A stretch of 38,252 bases of DNA, taken from sequence record MZ043897.1. One strand, written 5' to 3'. This document shows positions 2,655 through 33,156 of this stretch, piece after piece (within the stretch, counting starts at the first letter, position 1; the number at the start of each line of letters is the position of its first letter). Origin of the DNA: Escherichia phage E212. A program made the position numbers and the translations under genes. The notes beneath the pieces are model-generated. The model made no database searches. It was given only the letters and a program-made list of their open reading frames with translations, and was not told the origin of the DNA.

Positions 2655-2679
2655 AGATTCCTCCCGAATAAACTTTGGC

Positions 2680-2727
2680 GATGCAATCTCGAAGCTCCTC
2701 CTGAGACGGTTGCTTCGGCATTGCATC
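2680..2727 (-). promoter_or_regulatory. Large imperfect inverted repeat in the N leader (candidate RNase III-type processing hairpin)
   Basis: GATGCAATCTCGAAGC ... GCTTCGGCATTGCATC, about 15-bp arms around a 16-nt loop, between the nutL-like site and the N RBS. Confidence 0.4.
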
Positions 2728-2752
2728 CCACAGCTTATATGGTTGGGTGATC

Positions 2753-2799
2753 TGGCTTTTCAGCCACGTAGTCGAGTGTTCGACGTTGTTTAAAGAGCC
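2753..2799 (-). promoter_or_regulatory. nutL candidate (boxA-like plus two hairpins, the second with a GAAAA-type loop)
   Basis: Transcript reads GGCUCUUUA-AACAAC-GUCGAACACUCGAC-UACG-UGGCUGAAAAGCCA; the same architecture recurs at the nutR candidate. Confidence 0.45.
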
Positions 2800-2844
2800 T
2801 GCCAGTCTGCTCCGTTTGGCTTACAGCGTCCTGCTGACGGTTAA

Positions 2845-2873
2845 ATAGTACGATATGTACTTTATTGGGTCAA
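2845..2873 (-). promoter_or_regulatory. pL candidate promoter
   Basis: Minus-strand TTGACC, 17-bp spacer, TACTAT, about 40 nt upstream of the boxA-like element; overlapped by a palindromic operator candidate. Confidence 0.4.
2847..2861. promoter_or_regulatory. oL operator candidate (AGTAC-N5-GTACT)
   Basis: AGTACGATATGTACT inverted repeat overlapping the pL -10 and spacer; related half-sites occur in the cI-cro intergenic region. Confidence 0.4.
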
Positions 2874-3060
2874 TACAATTTGTTCTAAAATGGGGTGATT
2901 TTTTATAACGCTTTGTATTTAATAGTGTTGTTTTTTAGCGTGGGTGTATCGCCTCGGCGATGTAAGGAGAGATCAGAATTGCGTGGTTTAGTGAGTTGTA
3001 TCTATTTATTTTTCAATAAATACATTTGGTTATGTGTCTTTAGGTGGGGGCGTGAGGCAA

Positions 3061-3086
3061 AGAAAACCCGGCTCGGTGGCCGGGTT
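3061..3086 (-). terminator. Intrinsic terminator candidate just downstream of the NYN-domain gene
   Basis: AACCCGGC/GCCGGGTT 8-bp stem with 6-nt loop; on the minus strand it is followed by UUUUCUUU. Confidence 0.45.
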
Positions 3087-3093
3087 GATGGGA

Positions 3094-3951
3094 TTATCGT
3101 TTATTTCTTTGATGTTTCTTTGCAGACTCAGCTTGAGTGTTTCCATACCTGCGTTTACCGCTATTGTTTTTTCCTCTAGGCTTGCCTTTTTTTCGATCTT
3201 CCCACCAGTCAGGTGCCGGGTCTGGCTCAACATGTAAAGCATCGGCAAGTCCTGATATCAAGCTGTATGACTGAACTCCATCAATGTGCTCTGACAGTGA
3301 TGGGGTAACATTCTGTCTTAGTGGATCAAGAATAAAATCAATACCTTTAATTCTGGCGTGTTTGGCGGCAGGCACAAAGTCTGAGTCCCCAGCAACAAGG
3401 ACAATTACATCAACAAGTTTTTCATAAGCTAAAGTCGTGATATCCATCCCTAGCTTGATATCAACTTGTTTTTGTTTGATGTCATAGTAAAAATCATCAT
3501 TTGTCAGTTCATCCCATTTTTTCGTTCCTTTCATCAGAGCATCAAGGGAGAATGTAGTTAGTTGCCATCGCTTATTATCAACAAGATTCCCTAATCTTAA
3601 GGCTGTTTTTCGAGTTTTTCTTAACTCTTCATGCAGCTCCGTTCTCAGAATATATGATTTTTCGAGTTTGAAATTCTTGCGACCAGGCGTCTTATTGCCA
3701 GGCTCAGGAAGTGGAAGGCGTGTTTGAATGTCGAGTGGTGGACAGTCATAGAAGTAAATTCTATAAAGCTCAAGCGGTTCCCTACGTTCTTGTGATTGAC
3801 GTTTTCCATTAAGATGGGAAAGAACCATTGACCATATTACTTTCATTATGCATTGCGCAGTCAGTTCATGCTCGGCGAAGTGTTTACGATGCGTAGCATG
3901 AACACGCTGCATGAAAAAACCCGCATCAATTAAAATTGCTGCTTTCTTCAT
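3094..3951 (-). CDS. NYN/LabA-like (PIN-like) domain protein with basic C-terminal tail; putative nuclease in the rexAB position
   Basis: 285-aa ORF; N-terminal AAILIDAGFF and downstream IVLVAGDSDFVPAAK motifs are typical of NYN/LabA-like domains; Lys/Arg-rich C-terminal 40 aa; immediately downstream of cI on the same strand. Confidence 0.6.
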   Translation of the reverse strand: MKKAAILIDAGFFMQRVHATHRKHFAEHELTAQCIMKVIWSMVLSHLNGKRQSQERREPLELYRIYFYDCPPLDIQTRLPLPEPGNKTPGRKNFKLEKSYILRTELHEELRKTRKTALRLGNLVDNKRWQLTTFSLDALMKGTKKWDELTNDDFYYDIKQKQVDIKLGMDITTLAYEKLVDVIVLVAGDSDFVPAAKHARIKGIDFILDPLRQNVTPSLSEHIDGVQSYSLISGLADALHVEPDPAPDWWEDRKKGKPRGKNNSGKRRYGNTQAESAKKHQRNKR

Positions 3952-26578: not shown

Positions 26579-28686
26579 GTTTACCAGAGGGATTTGTTCT
26601 GGATGAACAGCCTGATAACTCACAGCTTCCTGATGGCTTTGTGCTTGATGCCCAACCAGAACAGCAGCAATCTCCTTTGGTTTCACCAGAGGAAAATTCC
26701 AGACAGGAAAATGTTGTTAATAATGCTAACGGTTTCGACCGTTTTATGTATGGCGTTCTCAGTGGATTGATGGATGTTGGTAAAGGTGTTGGTCTATTTC
26801 AGGATATGACACCAGAAGAGCAAGCCGCAATTCAGTCTCTACAGCAGAAGTTAGCGGCAAAACCATCAACCGCACAAGATGTTGGTGAGTTCGTTGGACA
26901 AGCAGCACCATTTGTTAGTGGTGGTGGGATTATTTCTCAGGTTCCGAAAGGGGCGGCAAGGCTGGCTGCCGCCGCAGGGCTTGGTGCTGGAGAAGGGGCT
27001 ATTGTAGCCAATGGAACAAATAGCGATGTTGCTTCTGGAGCTGCTATTGGCGCTGTGGCTGGCCCTGTAGCAGAGATTGTTGGTCCAGCTCTTGGGAAGA
27101 TTGCAGGAAAAATTAAAAATAGTGCCGGAGATATTTATCGCTCATCCGTAGGGATGGGGAGTAAATCATCTAAAGCAACGTTAAAGAAAGCTGCTGGCGC
27201 AATGGACAATAAATTTATCGGCGGCCAACGAGCTATTCAAGATTTCGCCGATGAAGTTAATCCTGATTTTAACGCGATAAATGCTATTCGTGAGCTAGAA
27301 CTGGAAAATTATGCCACTCCAGGCATGATCTCCAATAATCCTGCTGTCAGGGCTCTTGATAATGCAGTGGCAAGTCTCCCTGGAACAGAGATTAGTGAGG
27401 CGCATAAGCGTTTTATTACTGAATTAGGAAGAAAAGCTGATGAAATGATAACTTCATTTGGGGGAAGCCTTGATAAGCAACTGGTTTCTGACAGGCTTGC
27501 AGATAATTTTGATAAAACCATTTCATCATTACAAAATCAGTCAGATAACATCTACAACAAAATTGCCGAAAAGGTTCCTGTAAGAGACCGGATTGAGGCA
27601 ACTAATACATTGAATTTTTTAGAGGATTTTGCTGATGATATAGGTGGAATTGATGAATTATCTCCAATAATGAAGCGGACATTGAACCGACTTGATCCAA
27701 ACACCTTGCCAACGTATGGGCGTTTAGATCTCGCTAGAAAGCAGGTTGGACAAGCTATTGGCAAAGGCTCTGGTCCATTCAAGGATGAAGAAACAGGTGT
27801 TCTTAAAAAGTTATATGCAGCCATAACAGATGACCAACAGGCTGTCGCAGAAAAATATGGCGCAGGGGAATTATGGACGCTTGGTAAGGAGTTGGTAAAA
27901 AAACGAAAATCCATTGAAGATGATGCTGTAACCGTCTTGGGTAGAAAACTTCAGCAATCAGCAATTCCAAAAGTTGAAAGTGCTGTTGTTAATATGGCAA
28001 AAGGAAACGGTGGCGACTTTAGGCAATTAATGAAGTCGATTCCAAAGGATATGCGGCAGGAAGTTGCGCTCACCTCAATGAATAAAGCATTTACCAGCTA
28101 TGCCAAATCACCTGGTCAGCAATTAGGAGTTGATGGATTTGTAAAATGGTATAACGGAATGTCACGCAATGGGGCCAATATGAAGGCTCTCCGTGATGCT
28201 ATTGGCACAGATGCATCAAAGCGCCTTGATACGATTTATCAAGCAGCTAAGGCTATGAATAGACTCAATACTGGTAAGCAGTATGCTAGTAGTCTTGTGG
28301 ATCAGCAAGTTAATAACTTTCTGAAAGAAAAGGGTAGTCTCGCAAAAATTTATGGAATAGCCTCAAAAGCTGCTGCGGCGGAAGGTATTACAAGCTTATC
28401 TGGTCTTCCTGGTGTAGGTGCAACAGGGGTGATAACGTCAGCATTGATGTCAGGGAAAACAAGTAGGATAAAGGCTGCTGATGCTCTACTGTCTTCTCCT
28501 GAGTTTAAATCAATGCTATTTCGCCTGCAAAACGCACCAGTAGACAGAGCAGAAGTGAGACGCGCAATAGAAAGGAAACTGATGCAATCTGGGGCATTTA
28601 AGAGATGGGAGAAAACCTTATCAACAGATGAAGCAAAAACCATTGCCCGCACGGGGATTATTACATGGCTCGCTAGTGACAGTTAG
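26563..28686 (+). CDS. Ejection protein, P22 gp16-like
   Basis: 707-aa ORF in the gene-16 position; N-terminus carries a tandem [11 protein letters not shown] / [11 protein letters not shown] repeat. Confidence 0.7.
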
Positions 28687-28910
28687 TCAACTTTGGTTAT
28701 TTTGCCTTCTTTTTCTTGATGAACTTTGCATCCATCATCTTTTGATAGCCAAACTAAAAACTTTAAAACCTTAAACACAAGTACGGCTACTGCAATGAAA
28801 GCACCAATTGCAATTATTGCAAGCGAAATTATTTGCATTGGTGCTTTTAATGCAGGGAAAATAGTGTAAATGATCGCGAAAACAGTAATTATGAGGAACC
28901 ATCGCTTCAC
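28683..28910 (-). CDS. Small membrane protein (75 aa, two predicted TM helices)
   Basis: GTG start with strong RBS AAGGAGG (5-nt spacer); two hydrophobic stretches (LIITVFAIIYTIF and IISLAIIAIGAFIAVAVLVF); divergent from the Panacea gene. Confidence 0.55.
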   Translation of the reverse strand: MKRWFLIITVFAIIYTIFPALKAPMQIISLAIIAIGAFIAVAVLVFKVLKFLVWLSKDDGCKVHQEKEGKITKVD

Positions 28911-28972
28911 ACCAACCTCCTTAGTTTTGAGCAGGATACCAGATGATACTGTATTGGTGGAGTGGTGTGTGA

Positions 28973-29169
28973 AAACGTGTCAACGACAAACCATCCACAA
29001 CTTGGACGAATGATTTAGCAAAAAGTGCTATTTTTGGTGTTTAGTGTCATAGAAAAGTGAATAGCTCACTTTTCAACATTGCATGAAACTTGCAGGAAAT
29101 GTGACATTACCTTATAGGTAACTTCGGCGAAAATGCAGTAAATGTGAAACGTAATGATTTAAACGTGTC
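28973..29169. repeat. Four copies of an AAAYGTGWM motif plus a 15-bp palindrome in the divergent intergenic region
   Basis: AAACGTGTC (28973-28981 and 29161-29169), AAATGTGAC (29097-29105), AAATGTGAA (29140-29148); palindrome TTACCTTATAGGTAA (29107-29121). Confidence 0.4.
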
Positions 29170-29284
29170 GAGAAAGTGGTTGTAAGTTAGCCTCTGAAGG
29201 ATTGATGACAGCTTTGTTATGGTATTAAATGCAACTTGACACAGTTGTATACATAGCTGCGGCTATCAAGATGGAGGTATGTTT

Positions 29285-29728
29285 ATGCTCACTTGTTTTG
29301 ATGTCGCCGACTACTTCTTGGCGCATTGCGATGAAGAAAGTGGCGACATTATCTCTAACCTAAAAATTCAGAAGTTGACGTATTATGCCCAAGGGTTTTC
29401 TCTGGTTCTTCTGGGTAAACCGCTATTTAATGAGAAAATTGAAGCCTGGATGCATGGGCCAGTAGTTCCTGAATTGTATCGTAAATATAGGGACTGTGGT
29501 AACGGAGCTTTACCTGCGCCAGAAAACTTTGACGCTAAAAAATTCAGTGAAGATGAAATTGAATTGCTGGATGAGGTGTATAAAGTTTATGGTCAGTTTT
29601 CTGCCTGGAAACTGCGCAATATGACTCACGAAGAGCAGCCATGGAAAGATGCTTACATTGAGGGTGCGGTTAGCCAAGAAATCACACTTGATTCTATGAA
29701 AGGTTTTTTCAAAACGTTAATTAACTGA
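29285..29728 (+). CDS. Panacea-domain (DUF4065, GepA/SocA-like) protein; putative antitoxin or regulator
   Basis: DVADYFL...ISNLKIQKLTYYAQGFSLVLLGKPLFNEKIEAWMHGPVVPELY matches the Panacea/COG3600 signature; start at the second ATG (7 nt after GGAGG; track start is 29279). Confidence 0.7.
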   Translation: MLTCFDVADYFLAHCDEESGDIISNLKIQKLTYYAQGFSLVLLGKPLFNEKIEAWMHGPVVPELYRKYRDCGNGALPAPENFDAKKFSEDEIELLDEVYKVYGQFSAWKLRNMTHEEQPWKDAYIEGAVSQEITLDSMKGFFKTLIN

Positions 29729-29733
29729 CGTGT

Positions 29734-30156
29734 ATGTCTAGAGTTAAGGGAAGAATAAAACAGAGGGATAAAGAGAGCTCTGCTACTGTTGGCCTCTCTA
29801 TCCATCACGAATCTCATGATGTAGACAAAAGTCCGCCTGTATTTTCTCTTAGATACCTACAAAAGGGGTATTGCCTAGATTGCTGCCAAAAGCATGAAAA
29901 GGCAGCATTTGCAGATAGGCTGTTCAGGTTAAGTCAGATGTCATGGGATGAGATACGAAAATCTGATAAACACGGGCTTGGGACGGAAAAAATTGCCAGA
30001 AACGCGATAAAGGCTCCGATTCCTAAGCATGTTACTCAAGATGTGGATTTCATTGCGTTCAGATTTTGCTCTAAGGCACCTATGGTTGGTTATAAGATAG
30101 GAGCCACTTTTTATGTCTTATGGCTCGACAGGGAGTTCAAGCTATACAAGCACTAA
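29734..30156 (+). CDS. Hypothetical protein (140 aa), candidate partner or toxin of the Panacea protein
   Basis: Starts 5 nt after the Panacea stop on the same strand (likely co-translated); basic; no family recognised by eye. Confidence 0.5.
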   Translation: MSRVKGRIKQRDKESSATVGLSIHHESHDVDKSPPVFSLRYLQKGYCLDCCQKHEKAAFADRLFRLSQMSWDEIRKSDKHGLGTEKIARNAIKAPIPKHVTQDVDFIAFRFCSKAPMVGYKIGATFYVLWLDREFKLYKH

Positions 30157-30157
30157 T

Positions 30158-30184
30158 AAAACCCACCGTCAGGTGGGTTTTTTA
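30158..30184. terminator. Bidirectional intrinsic terminator between the convergent Panacea operon and ClpP-like gene
   Basis: AAAACCCACC-GTCA-GGTGGGTTTTTT, A-tract upstream and T-tract downstream. Confidence 0.7.
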
Positions 30185-30208
30185 TAAGGAGTAATCATGA
30201 TTTACCCA

Positions 30209-31250
<1,042 letters not shown>

Positions 31251-31269
31251 CAGATAACCAACGCAACGA

Positions 31270-31292
31270 CCCAGCTTCGGCTGGGTTTTTTT
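31270..31292 (+). terminator. Intrinsic terminator upstream of the tailspike gene
   Basis: CCCAGC-TTCG-GCTGGG followed by TTTTTTT. Confidence 0.75.
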
Positions 31293-31350
31293 ATGCCCAA
31301 AATTCACCGTAGCCATGCTGCGGCCATTCCTTGTATCTGGAGCAAATCAA

Positions 31351-33156
31351 ATGACAGATTCAATAAATGCCAATGTTGTAGTGAGTATGCCTTCGCAACT
31401 CTTCACTATGGCGCGTTCTTTTAAAGCCGTAGCTAATGGCAAAATTTATATCGGTAAAATTGACACTGACCCGGTAAATCCTGAAAACCAGATTCAGGTT
31501 TATGTAGAGAACGAAGACGGTTCTCACATTCCTGTTTCGCAACCAATAATCATTAACGCTGCCGGATATCCGGTATATAACGGACAGATTGCCAAATTCG
31601 TTACCGTGCAAGGCCATTCTATGGCTGTTTATGATGCGCATGGTTCGCAGCAGTTCAATTTTCCCAATGTGCTGAAGTATGATCCTGATCAGCTTCGCCA
31701 GGAAATAACATCGACTGGAGATGGAAAGGGGGCTGACATGATACCCCTAACACAAGGAGGAACAATTCAGAATGCTGTGTTCGCAGTAACACCTCAGGCT
31801 TATGGCGCAACATGCGATGGTGTGGCTGATGACTCAGATGCTGTTGAAGAAATGATGGCAGCCTATCCAAATCATTTGATTATTACAATCCCACCTGGTT
31901 CAGTGCTTACAATTAAACGAAAGCTCGTATATGGAGGTAGGCGCTTTGAGATTCGTGGATATTCTGGCGATATGACTAATAAGGTTATAGGAGCGGAGTC
32001 AAGTCAATTATATTGTGACGTTCCTGGGGACTATGCTATTCAATGCGAAAATTCGGATGTTTTTTTATCTGATGTCATTGTAAAGGGAATTCCACAGTAT
32101 GGAAACGGTACTATCGGTACGAATAAAGGAATATCGACATTAAATGGTAATATTAAAACAAACCGCACTTCTTGGCTTGGGTTTGACGTTCCATGTCAAG
32201 GTATCAATTCTTTTTACGTAACATTTATAGATACAGATTGGCTTGCAATTAAAAATGGCCCAGATATACAGCGGGCATATAACATTAAGTTTATAGGCGG
32301 AAGATCTGTTGATTTTGATACATTTTTCAAAATATCAGGCGCTGCTGGTAATGGTCCGATTAATTTTATTGCCATGGCGTTTGAACGGTGGACGAATTAC
32401 GTTGTTGGTACTGATTCTGCTGCACTTATTCGACCGCAAAATATAGCGTTTAAATTTTGTTACTTTGAAAATATGGATGACCAATCTATTTATAACGGTC
32501 TTACTGGGCGGGGCGGTGCTGCAACTCCAGGTGATGCATTTTATAAAAAGTATGCTTATGCCCGCATACTGGTCGGTACGCCAACGTCTTTCAGCATGGA
32601 CGAAACTAACACTGTATATGCTAAAGGGCTTGAAAACGGATGTATAGCAATTGATTCTTGGGGTATACGAGATCTTGTGTTCAAGCCTAAAATTGTTACT
32701 CCAGCAGACTCATGGAATAGTAACCAGAGGCCATTAAGCATGGTTAGGGCAACCTATCTTGACCATGTCGATGTTTTTAATAATAACACCTCACCAGATG
32801 GTGACTTAGGGTTTCCATTTATATCATCTGATAACTCTACACTGTTACCAACAATAAGATCAGGCGTTGGTGTATCCCATGGGAAAACAGTATTGTTTAA
32901 TGGTTTCTACAATCAGACTATAACATTCCAAGATGTTCCAGCAGGTGTCAATGTATATCAAGATATAACAACAACAGAAAAGTTAGACATGGTAAATGCA
33001 AGTGTTAAGATAACATCAAGAAGTGCAGCTTCTGCTATTGCCACAACTCAATTGCAGGTGTTATCTTCAAATAAAATTCGCGTACACATAACAAATGGTC
33101 ACAGTAACCCTGTAACATTTTCTGTGGCAATTGTAATTCCATATTTATTCAAATAA
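31351..33156 (+). CDS. Tailspike protein (P22-like head-binding N-terminal domain, divergent receptor-binding body)
   Basis: N-terminal about 110 aa ([12 protein letters not shown]...[26 protein letters not shown]...[17 protein letters not shown]...VLKYDPDQ) match the P22 tailspike head-binding domain; remainder unrelated in sequence. Confidence 0.85.

What the first reader, a model, noticed from the sequence alone, without database searches (positions are those of the whole stretch)
29285..30156. Panacea-domain protein plus unknown 140-aa partner: candidate toxin-antitoxin or defence module
The first ORF carries the Panacea/DUF4065 signature (DVADYFL, KLQKLTYYAQG, IEAWMHGPVVPELY), a domain described as a promiscuous antitoxin module paired with many unrelated toxins. 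A basic 140-aa ORF follows 5 nt later on the same strand and the pair ends at a strong bidirectional terminator. The pair sits in the hypervariable slot between the ejection genes and the tailspike, where P22 carries sieA and immI. I could not assign the second protein to any family by eye.
Basis: partly seen in the sequence, partly recalled or inferred. Interest (0 to 1): 0.8.

Follow-up and report, generated by a model that had tools for sequence, protein, structure and literature searches.

The report
Prophage Panacea antitoxin with RelE-like RNase
This is a two-gene cassette in a P22-like E. coli prophage, a Panacea-domain protein followed by a RelE-fold ribonuclease-like protein, that belongs to an already catalogued family of predicted toxin-antitoxin pairs whose closest tested relatives were, puzzlingly, not toxic.

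Summary
panA (29285-29728, 147 aa) passes the Pfam Panacea profile (87 bits, cutoff 25.7). A basic 140-aa ORF (29734-30156) follows 5 nt later, and a 10-bp bidirectional terminator closes the pair.

Panacea lies directly upstream in 143 of 148 informative loci (84 of 84 dereplicated clusters) from bacteria, archaea and phages, and there is no conserved third gene.

The family is toxin cluster T1 of Kurata et al. 2022 (PanAT). Its Salmonella phage Emek and E. coli members were reported non-toxic in E. coli, and a Clostridium member was toxic. The Emek construct carried a mis-annotated 22-aa N-terminal extension.

Verdict: this is a new member of a known, predicted toxin-antitoxin or defence family, sitting in the P22 sieA/immI moron slot. 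Its activity is unproven. Interest is modest.

The parts
29202..29228 (+). Weak candidate promoter for the pair (TTGATG, 15 nt, TGgTATTAA as an extended -10)
   Evidence: Read from the sequence. GGTATTAAAT is conserved in the window and L095, and GTATTAAAT also in Emek and phiv205-1. The consensus scan found no plus-strand promoter in the intergenic region upstream of panA. Inference only.
29273..29277 (+). Shine-Dalgarno GGAGG for panA, 7 nt before the ATG at 29285
   Evidence: Sequence. The GAGGT core is invariant across six related loci.
29285..29728 (+). panA: stand-alone Panacea-domain protein, 147 aa, pI 4.8 (an alternative ATG at 29279 would give 149 aa)
   Evidence: Pfam PF13274 at E 2.1e-24, 87 bits, cutoff 25.7. 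phrog_1281 at E 3e-59. RefSeq names it 'Panacea domain-containing protein'. The AF2 model has 7 helices and a beta-hairpin, as described for Panacea (PMC10440598). dN/dS is about 0.08-0.25 where measurable.
29734..30156 (+). panT (cluster T1): 140 aa, pI 9.6. It has a disordered basic tail (residues 1-32) and a RelE-fold, PB-BECR1-like putative RNase core (residues 33-140)
30158..30181 (.). Bidirectional intrinsic terminator shared with the convergent ClpP-like gene
   Evidence: 10-bp stem, dG -15.8 kcal/mol, z -3.68, with U-runs on both strands. An equivalent terminator is annotated in phage Emek.

Best explanation
The locus is a PanAT cassette of toxin cluster T1, carried as a moron in the sieA/immI slot of a P22-like E. 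coli prophage.

Shown:
- Gene 1 is a stand-alone Panacea protein.
- Gene 2 has a RelE/YafQ-type (BECR) fold and is homologous in sequence to the C-terminal part of the profile for the Menshen effector NsnC, where the Menshen paper places the PB-BECR1 RNase domain.
- The two genes are almost always adjacent and in the same order, typically -20 to +15 nt apart, across bacteria, archaea and phages.
- Both genes are under purifying selection.
- No third gene is conserved with them.

Inferred:
- The two genes are co-transcribed and translationally coupled.
- The acidic PanA binds the basic PanT directly and keeps it inactive, possibly through PanT's disordered N-terminal tail.
- When PanA is lost, or is perturbed by an infecting phage, PanT cleaves RNA. 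The target is most likely mRNA on the ribosome, as for RelE, YoeB and YafQ.
- Catalysis uses an acid-base set drawn from H80, E85, R110, Y138 and H140.
- Cleavage stops translation, which aborts superinfection and/or stabilises the prophage.
For: - Panacea profile match well above the cutoff.
- 46 of 47 family members hit the PADLOC NsnC model, best E 1.4e-11, over its C-terminal part (for ORF2, profile positions 185-280 of 284). That domain is described as a YafQ-like BECR RNase with an H-R-H triad (PMC12065111). H80, R110 and H140 are conserved at 81%, 97% and 94% in 143 diverse representatives, alongside E85 at 98%, D132 at 97% and Y138 at 97%.
- Panacea is directly upstream in 143 of 148 informative loci and in 84 of 84 clusters at 90% identity. 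Examples include a cyanobacterial chromosome and a Methanosarcinaceae MAG.
- Divergence of PanA and PanT is correlated: r 0.64, 0 of 999 permutations reach it. dN/dS is about 0.1-0.25.
- No flanking gene is shared by more than 4 of 84 loci.
- The charges are complementary, pI 4.8 against 9.6.
- The fused PanA-linker-PanT model gives pTM 0.66. The pLDDT of the PanT tail (residues 4-13) rises to 69 from about 50 alone.
- The family is listed as PanAT cluster T1, predicted 'mRNase', and a T1 member from C. cadaveris is toxic in E. coli (PMC8832971).
- Other PanA proteins bind and neutralise their toxins directly.
- The slot holds the superinfection-exclusion gene sieA in P22.
Against: - The two closest relatives that have been tested, Emek YP_006560566.1 and E. 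coli MOD1 WP_077635758.1, were 'not toxic' in E. coli BW25113.
- The one toxic T1 member was not rescued by its own PanA.
- An intact PanT gene persists in Xenorhabdus khoisanae without any Panacea domain.
- No sequence-level link to RelE, YoeB or YafQ could be obtained, and Foldseek found nothing significant. The catalytic-residue mapping therefore rests only on fold topology and the published H-R-H description.
- No convincing sigma-70 promoter was found.
- No PAE or contact data support the modelled interface.
- PADLOC has no model matching PanA, and the pair is not a recognised defence system.
Confidence: 0.5

Rival explanations
1. Sensor-effector pair rather than a classical TA. PanT is a latent RNase that is harmless on its own. 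PanA is not mainly an inhibitor. It acts as a folding partner or as a sensor that switches PanT on when it meets a phage cue, as in the fused CapRel system and as Ernits et al. hypothesise for Panacea.
For: - Close homologues are non-toxic alone.
- An intact orphan PanT is tolerated in X. khoisanae.
- The pairing is obligate and the genes are tightly spaced, consistent with coupled translation.
- The same domain is a regulated effector in Menshen.
- The Panacea-as-sensor hypothesis is published (PMC10440598).
Against: - A T1 member from C. cadaveris is toxic alone.
- The Emek construct carried a spurious N-terminal extension, so its non-toxicity may be an artefact.
- In X. khoisanae the last 22 or so codons of panA survive as a fusion and might still neutralise the toxin.
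- No trigger is known.
Confidence: 0.25
2. Addiction or stabilisation module only. The pair kills or arrests cells that lose the prophage and has no role against other phages.
For: - The architecture is that of a classical type II TA, with the antitoxin first and acidic/basic partners.
- The cassette is mobile and sits in unrelated contexts, including plain chromosomal sites.
Against: - An integrated prophage gains little from post-segregational killing.
- The slot is one used for superinfection exclusion.
- The same non-toxicity data apply here too.
Confidence: 0.1
3. Domesticated, non-toxic RelE-fold RNA-binding or RNA-processing protein that serves the phage's own gene regulation, with PanA as its regulator.
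For: - Enterobacterial members are non-toxic.
- Conservation is very strong, suggesting a conserved macromolecular target.
Against: - The pair is just as common in non-phage chromosomal contexts of cyanobacteria and in archaea.
- The conserved His, Arg, Glu and Tyr residues look catalytic.
- One family member is toxic.
Confidence: 0.08
4. SocAB-like type VI system. PanA acts as a proteolytic adaptor that feeds PanT to a Clp protease, perhaps the ClpP-like protein encoded convergently next door.
For: - ORF1 weakly matches the NCBIfam SocA model (61.9 bits).
- A ClpP-like gene abuts the pair in this window, in L001, in L155 and in phiv205-1.
Against: - The SocA equivalog cutoff of 190 bits is not met.
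- PanT is unrelated to SocB.
- The ClpP-like gene is absent next to the pair in Emek, in ETEC1749 and in nearly all other loci.
- Kurata et al. showed direct complexes for the PanA proteins they tested.
Confidence: 0.03
5. ParE-like gyrase poison rather than an RNase.
Against: - PanT is homologous to the Menshen BECR RNase domain.
- It has a conserved terminal Y-x-H together with conserved Glu and Arg, which is typical of the RNase branch (established knowledge of YoeB and YafQ; inference).
Confidence: 0.03

Closest known systems
PanAT toxin-antitoxin pairs, toxin cluster T1 (Kurata et al. 2022, PNAS; PMC8832971)
   Same: Both have a stand-alone Panacea protein ('noNTD') immediately upstream of a roughly 140-aa 'hypothetical protein' predicted to be an mRNase. 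The Emek orthologue pair, in the same P22-like slot, is listed by accession in Dataset S1. Gene order and spacing are the same.
   Different: PanT of this E. coli variant is only 57% identical to the Emek protein over the 113 aligned residues, and it is unannotated in most RefSeq genomes. No T1 pair has been validated as a true TA: two members were non-toxic and one was toxic but not neutralised.
RelE/YoeB/YafQ/HigB ribosome-dependent mRNA interferases (RelE/ParE superfamily, BECR fold)
   Different: There is no detectable sequence similarity. PanT has an extra basic disordered tail of about 32 aa and longer loops, giving a 108-aa core. Its partner is Panacea, not a RelB-, YefM- or DinJ-type antitoxin. 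Close homologues are not toxic.
Menshen NsnC effector, C-terminal PB-BECR1 domain (Li et al. 2025, NAR; PMC12065111)
   Same: Sequence-profile homology covers the whole core: ORF2 residues 40-137 align to profile positions 185-280 of 284, and 46 of 47 family members hit the profile. A His-Arg-His set is conserved, consistent with the published H-R-H triad.
   Different: PanT stands alone. It has no inPIN N-terminal domain and no NsnA (ParB-DUF262) or NsnB (ABC ATPase) neighbours, and it is regulated by Panacea instead. The Menshen paper does not mention Panacea.
SocAB (type VI TA, Caulobacter)
   Same: The antitoxin carries the same Pfam domain (SocA_Panacea).
   Different: The SocA equivalog score is not reached (61.9 against 190 bits). 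The toxin is unrelated to SocB, which blocks the DnaN clamp.

Membership tests
Panacea (PF13274 / DUF4065) PanA antitoxins | Match to the Pfam Panacea profile above the gathering threshold | tested here: met
   E 2.1e-24, 87 bits against 25.7, covering profile positions 1-113 of 113.
Panacea (PF13274 / DUF4065) PanA antitoxins | Compact fold of helices a1-a7 with a b1-b2 hairpin (Ernits et al. 2023) | tested here: met
   The AF2 fused model has 7 helices of at least 4 residues and strands at 53-55 and 58-60, with pLDDT mostly above 90.
Panacea (PF13274 / DUF4065) PanA antitoxins | Neutralises its cognate toxin and forms a complex with it | not testable with these tools
   Only indirect hints are available: pTM 0.66 for the fused model and a rise in the tail's pLDDT.
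PanAT toxin cluster T1 (Kurata 2022) | Homology to listed T1 members and conserved adjacency to panA within 100 nt | tested here: met
   57% identity over 113 aligned residues to the listed Emek PanT. Adjacency holds in 143 of 148 informative loci, mostly with gaps of -20 to +15 nt.
PanAT toxin cluster T1 (Kurata 2022) | Toxic on expression and rescued by PanA (the paper's criteria for a bona fide TA) | not testable with these tools
   From the literature on relatives: Emek and E. coli MOD1 members were not toxic, and the C. cadaveris member was toxic but not rescued.
RelE/ParE superfamily (BECR fold) mRNA interferases | RelE-type fold: strand, two helices, then an antiparallel sheet | tested here: met
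RelE/ParE superfamily (BECR fold) mRNA interferases | Sequence membership of a RelE, YoeB, YafQ or ParE Pfam/NCBIfam family | tested here: not met
   No Pfam hit. No PDB sequence hit with the single sequence or the profile. hhalign against YafQ, YoeB and RelE sequences and against a YoeB profile gave nothing.
RelE/ParE superfamily (BECR fold) mRNA interferases | Catalytic acid-base residues at the positions seen in RelE, YoeB and YafQ | tested here: inconclusive
   E85, R110, Y138, H140, H80 and D132 are conserved at 81-98%. They could not be superposed on known active sites because no coordinates or alignments were available.
Menshen defence system (NsnABC) | C-terminal effector domain of NsnC (PB-BECR1) | tested here: met
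   PADLOC NsnC at E 1.8e-7 for ORF2. 46 of 47 members hit it, best E 1.4e-11.
Menshen defence system (NsnABC) | Three-gene nsnA (ParB-DUF262), nsnB (ABC ATPase), nsnC operon, with an inPIN N-terminal domain in NsnC | tested here: not met
   Neighbours are phage ejection genes, a ClpP-like gene and immI genes. ORF2 has only a 32-aa disordered tail at its N-terminus. No recurrent flanking gene exists.
SocAB type VI TA | SocA equivalog score in NCBIfam NF047745 | tested here: not met
   61.9 bits against a cutoff of 190.

The most novel reading that the evidence does not exclude
PanAT-T1 is not a classical toxin-antitoxin pair. It is a minimal two-protein phage sensor-effector. The PB-BECR1 RNase, the same effector domain used by Menshen, is harmless alone, and Panacea licenses it when it senses an infection cue. 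On this reading, P22-like prophages deploy the pair from the sieA/immI slot as an abortive-infection or superinfection-exclusion device. This would explain both the non-toxicity of the enterobacterial members and the obligate pairing.
Probability: 0.22. Interest if true: 0.65.

Novelty: new member of a known kind. Interest (0 to 1): 0.35.

Why it matters
T1 is numbered first among the Panacea-associated toxin clusters. My profile search found 1,476 clusters at 50% identity (E <= 0.001), spread across bacteria, archaea and temperate phages. Even so, T1 has no Pfam family, is not annotated for this variant in most of the RefSeq E. coli records I looked at, and has no demonstrated activity.

This analysis ties its core to the effector domain of the Menshen defence system. 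It also shows that at least one of the published negative toxicity tests used a mis-started protein. Together these make a clean re-test worthwhile. A positive result would add a widespread RNase effector to the prophage-encoded defence repertoire and would help settle whether Panacea is an inhibitor or a sensor. If the re-test is also negative, the locus remains an ordinary, already catalogued, predicted TA pair.

Tried and rejected
1. Sequence-level links of PanT to solved RelE-family toxins all gave nothing. These were phmmer and profile hmmsearch against PDB sequences, hhalign of the family profile against verified YafQ, YoeB and RelE sequences, and profile-profile comparison with a YoeB alignment that turned out to be narrow, at least 82% identical. 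The catalytic mapping is therefore topology-based inference only.
3. I tested whether PanA's variable C-terminal tail co-varies with the toxin more than the Panacea core does. It does not: partial r is 0.29 for the tail against 0.45 for the core. This gives no support for a C-terminal-specific interface.
4. I looked for a conserved third gene, including the adjacent ClpP-like gene. No flanking family occurs in more than 4 of 84 loci, so the ClpP/SocA-adaptor idea was rejected.
5. The promoter scan found no plus-strand sigma-70 match upstream of panA. An Rfam scan of 28600-31400 returned only sub-threshold terminator-like hits.
6. I tried to identify the tested E. coli MOD1 protein WP_077635758.1. 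It was not found among annotated relatives, so its exact relation to ORF2 is unresolved. It is probably the Emek-like variant with a longer annotated start.
7. dS is saturated in most pairwise comparisons, so dN/dS could be computed for only a few pairs.
8. I searched for later literature on T1, PanAT or DUF4065 in prophages and found nothing beyond the two PNAS papers.

Full report
**1. What is in the sequence**

ORF listing and direct reading show two same-strand ORFs. ORF1 runs from 29279 or 29285 to 29728. ORF2 runs from 29734 to 30156. Five nucleotides separate the stop of ORF1 from the ATG of ORF2.

A GGAGG at 29273-29277 lies 7 nt before the ATG at 29285. That ATG and the GAGGT core are conserved in six related loci, whereas the codon at 29279 is GTG or missing in them.

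The pair ends at a 10-bp stem-loop (30158-30181, dG -15.8 kcal/mol, z -3.7) flanked by U-runs on both strands. The stem-loop also closes a convergent ClpP-like gene.

ORF1 is acidic (pI 4.8) and ORF2 basic (pI 9.6). The GC content of the cassette (0.41-0.42) is below the window mean of 0.47.

**2. ORF1 is a Panacea protein**

Pfam PF13274 matches over its full length at 87 bits against a cutoff of 25.7. RefSeq names the identical protein 'Panacea domain-containing protein'. In an AlphaFold model it shows seven helices and a beta-hairpin, which is the architecture Ernits et al. describe for Panacea (PMC10440598). It has no extra N-terminal domain. The SocA equivalog model is not reached (61.9 against 190 bits).

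**3. ORF2 can be assigned**

ORF2 has no Pfam hit and no sequence match in the PDB. It does match three other resources:

- phrog_8366, over its full length;
- the PADLOC model of NsnC, the Menshen effector (E 1.8e-7, ORF2 residues 40-137 against profile positions 185-280 of 284);
- NCBIfam MAG6450_fam, below its cutoff.

These weak hits are robust. 46 of 47 family members hit NsnC independently (best E 1.4e-11), and 41 of 47 hit MAG6450_fam. Li et al. [quoted passage not shown]

Across 143 representatives that are 30-59% identical to ORF2, the conserved polar residues are:

| Residue | Conservation |
|---|---|
| K/R79 | 94% |
| H80 | 81% |
| E85 | 98% |
| D/E103 | 93% |
| R110 | 97% |
| K/R121 | 94% |
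| D132 | 97% |
| Y138 | 97% |
| H140 | 94% |

This composition fits an RNase active site of the YoeB/YafQ kind and the published H-R-H triad. I could not superpose structures, and all sequence alignments to RelE, YoeB and YafQ failed, so the residue-by-residue mapping is inference.

The basic N-terminal tail is always present (median 31.5 aa; K+R 7 against D+E 3), but its sequence varies.

**4. The pair is a conserved, autonomous cassette**

The family is large. There are 260 hits in the word-indexed search and 1,476 clusters at 50% identity at E<=0.001 in the exhaustive search. Members come from enterobacteria, pseudomonads, cyanobacteria, sulfate reducers and a Methanosarcinaceae archaeon.

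This holds for all 84 clusters at 90% identity, and the gaps are mostly -20 to +15 nt. It includes non-phage chromosomal contexts and archaea.

Divergence of PanA and PanT is correlated (r 0.64; 0 of 999 permutations reach it). That shows co-inheritance, not necessarily physical contact. Where synonymous sites are not saturated, dN/dS is 0.08-0.25 for both genes. No flanking gene recurs in more than 4 of 84 loci.

**5. Context in the phage**

The window is a P22-like (Lederbergvirus-type) E. coli prophage. Across the region compared (28000-32000) it is identical to phage EC.P3 apart from a deletion of the immI region.

Upstream are the ejection (DNA-transfer) genes and a 75-aa membrane ORF on the minus strand. 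Downstream in intact relatives are a ClpP-like gene and an Mnt-like gene (minus strand), then arc, ant and the tailspike. P22 has gene 16, sieA, a gap, orf59a-mnt, arc-ant and gene 9 in the same interval.

Within E. coli, the full-length variant seen here occurs in at least 34 of 5,426 complete genomes. A second variant, Emek-like and 57% identical in PanT, occurs in 48.

**6. What was already known**

Kurata et al. 2022 list this family as PanT cluster T1. The Emek pair (YP_006560565.1 / YP_006560566.1) and an E. coli MOD1 pair are named there. Their Table S1 gives the predicted mode of action as 'mRNase' and reports both proteins as 'not toxic' in E. coli BW25113. The T1 member from C. cadaveris was toxic but was not neutralised by its PanA. 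I found no later work on T1.

One caveat emerges from this analysis. The Emek accession that was tested is 161 aa. The family-typical protein starts at MARKSK... (139 aa), and RefSeq annotates the near-identical E. coli protein (dN 0.003 against Emek) that way (WP_024173453.1, starting 4 nt after panA). The tested protein thus carried a hydrophobic 22-aa extension translated from the 3' end of panA in another frame.

**7. Interaction hints**

I predicted a fused PanA-(GGGGS)x6-PanT chain from a paired alignment of 38 natural pairs. Both domains stayed confident, and pTM was 0.66 despite 43 disordered or linker residues. The pLDDT of PanT residues 4-13 rose to 69, from about 50 in the toxin-alone model, and isolated beta-bridges appeared at PanA Q131-E132 and I146 and at PanT I8. 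Without PAE this is only a hint that the basic tail docks on PanA. It does resemble the mode Ernits et al. validated for another stand-alone PanA.

In Xenorhabdus khoisanae the Panacea domain has been deleted. The last 22 or so codons of panA survive, fused in-frame to a tail-assembly-like gene, and PanT is intact with all conserved residues. Either PanT is tolerated without PanA, or the C-terminal peptide of PanA is enough to neutralise it. A crude covariation test did not favour the C-terminus.

**8. Mechanism and verdict**

The best-supported reading is a PanAT-T1 cassette: a Panacea partner controlling a RelE-fold, PB-BECR1-type RNase, carried as a prophage moron that probably acts in superinfection exclusion or abortive infection and/or prophage stabilisation.

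- Shown: family membership, fold, homology to the Menshen effector domain, obligate pairing, purifying selection and location.
- Inferred: RNase activity, direct neutralisation, the trigger and the biological role.

The main rival is that PanT is latent and Panacea acts as a sensor or activator rather than a simple inhibitor. It is kept alive by the published non-toxicity of close homologues and by the Xenorhabdus orphan.

The locus is not a Menshen system, because it has no NsnA, no NsnB and no inPIN domain. It is not SocAB. At sequence level it is not a member of any curated RelE, YoeB, YafQ or ParE family.

Novelty: a new member of a known, predicted kind. Interest is modest. It lies mainly in the unresolved activity of a very widespread family and in the link to Menshen, which neither source paper mentions.

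Noticed in passing
window 30766-31078: A C-terminal fragment of an IS21-family IstB helper ATPase (PF01695, E 1e-34) replaces about 1.5 kb that holds the mnt-like, arc and ant genes in phage EC.P3 and prophage L001, which are otherwise identical or near-identical over the compared stretch. This prophage has therefore lost its immI region.
   Followed up: partly
window 30209-30745 (-): A 178-aa stand-alone ClpP-like protein (PF00574, E 4e-12; phrog 'head maturation protease'). In related E. coli prophages it is the distal gene of the Mnt-like repressor operon, so it is likely expressed in lysogens. It converges on panAT and shares its terminator. In this window it has lost its upstream gene and promoter to the IS remnant. 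It is not a conserved partner of the pair.
   Followed up: partly
window 28683-28910 (-): A 75-aa strongly hydrophobic ORF (phrog_7294, E 3e-49) sits directly after the gene 16-like ejection gene. This is the position and orientation of sieA in P22, so it may be a small membrane superinfection-exclusion protein.
   Followed up: no
RefSeq E. coli genomes, e.g. L001 4630-5109: PGAP annotates the Panacea gene but leaves ORF2 of this variant unannotated in most of the RefSeq records listed; the locus-tag numbering skips one in L001. The Emek-like variant's partner is annotated (WP_024173453.1). In the protein collection, the 90%-identity cluster containing ORF2 (representative P0001, 99% identical) has Logan assemblies as its only source.
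   Followed up: partly
L003 (Salmonella phage Emek) 3767-4252: The annotated 161-aa product YP_006560566.1, which was the construct tested for toxicity by Kurata et al., starts 62 nt inside panA. The conserved start (MARKSK..., 139 aa) lies 22 codons downstream.
   Followed up: yes
L021 / L106 (Xenorhabdus khoisanae) 2676-3411: The Panacea domain is deleted. The last 22 or so codons of panA are fused in-frame to the end of a lambda-like tail-assembly ORF, and an intact 143-aa PanT keeping all conserved residues follows immediately. No PanA remnant was detectable by tblastn.
   Followed up: partly
window 29052-29074: A perfect 9-bp inverted repeat (GAAAAGTGA-n5-TCACTTTTC) lies in the 370-nt divergent intergenic region between the 75-aa ORF and panA. 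It is identical in Emek and phiv205-1. It could be an operator or a terminator.
   Followed up: no
window 29646-30081 against L003 and L153: Nucleotide homology to the Emek-type cassette (83-87% on both flanks) is interrupted across the C-terminal 27 or so codons of panA and the first 116 or so codons of panT. This looks like a mosaic block, suggesting cassette-internal replacement or faster divergence of this segment.
   Followed up: partly
L118-L131 and phage records MK5109xx: A 40%-identical PanAT-T1 pair is carried by a group of Pseudomonas aeruginosa temperate phages (vB_Pae_CF60a and others), so the cassette recurs in unrelated temperate phage lineages.
   Followed up: no
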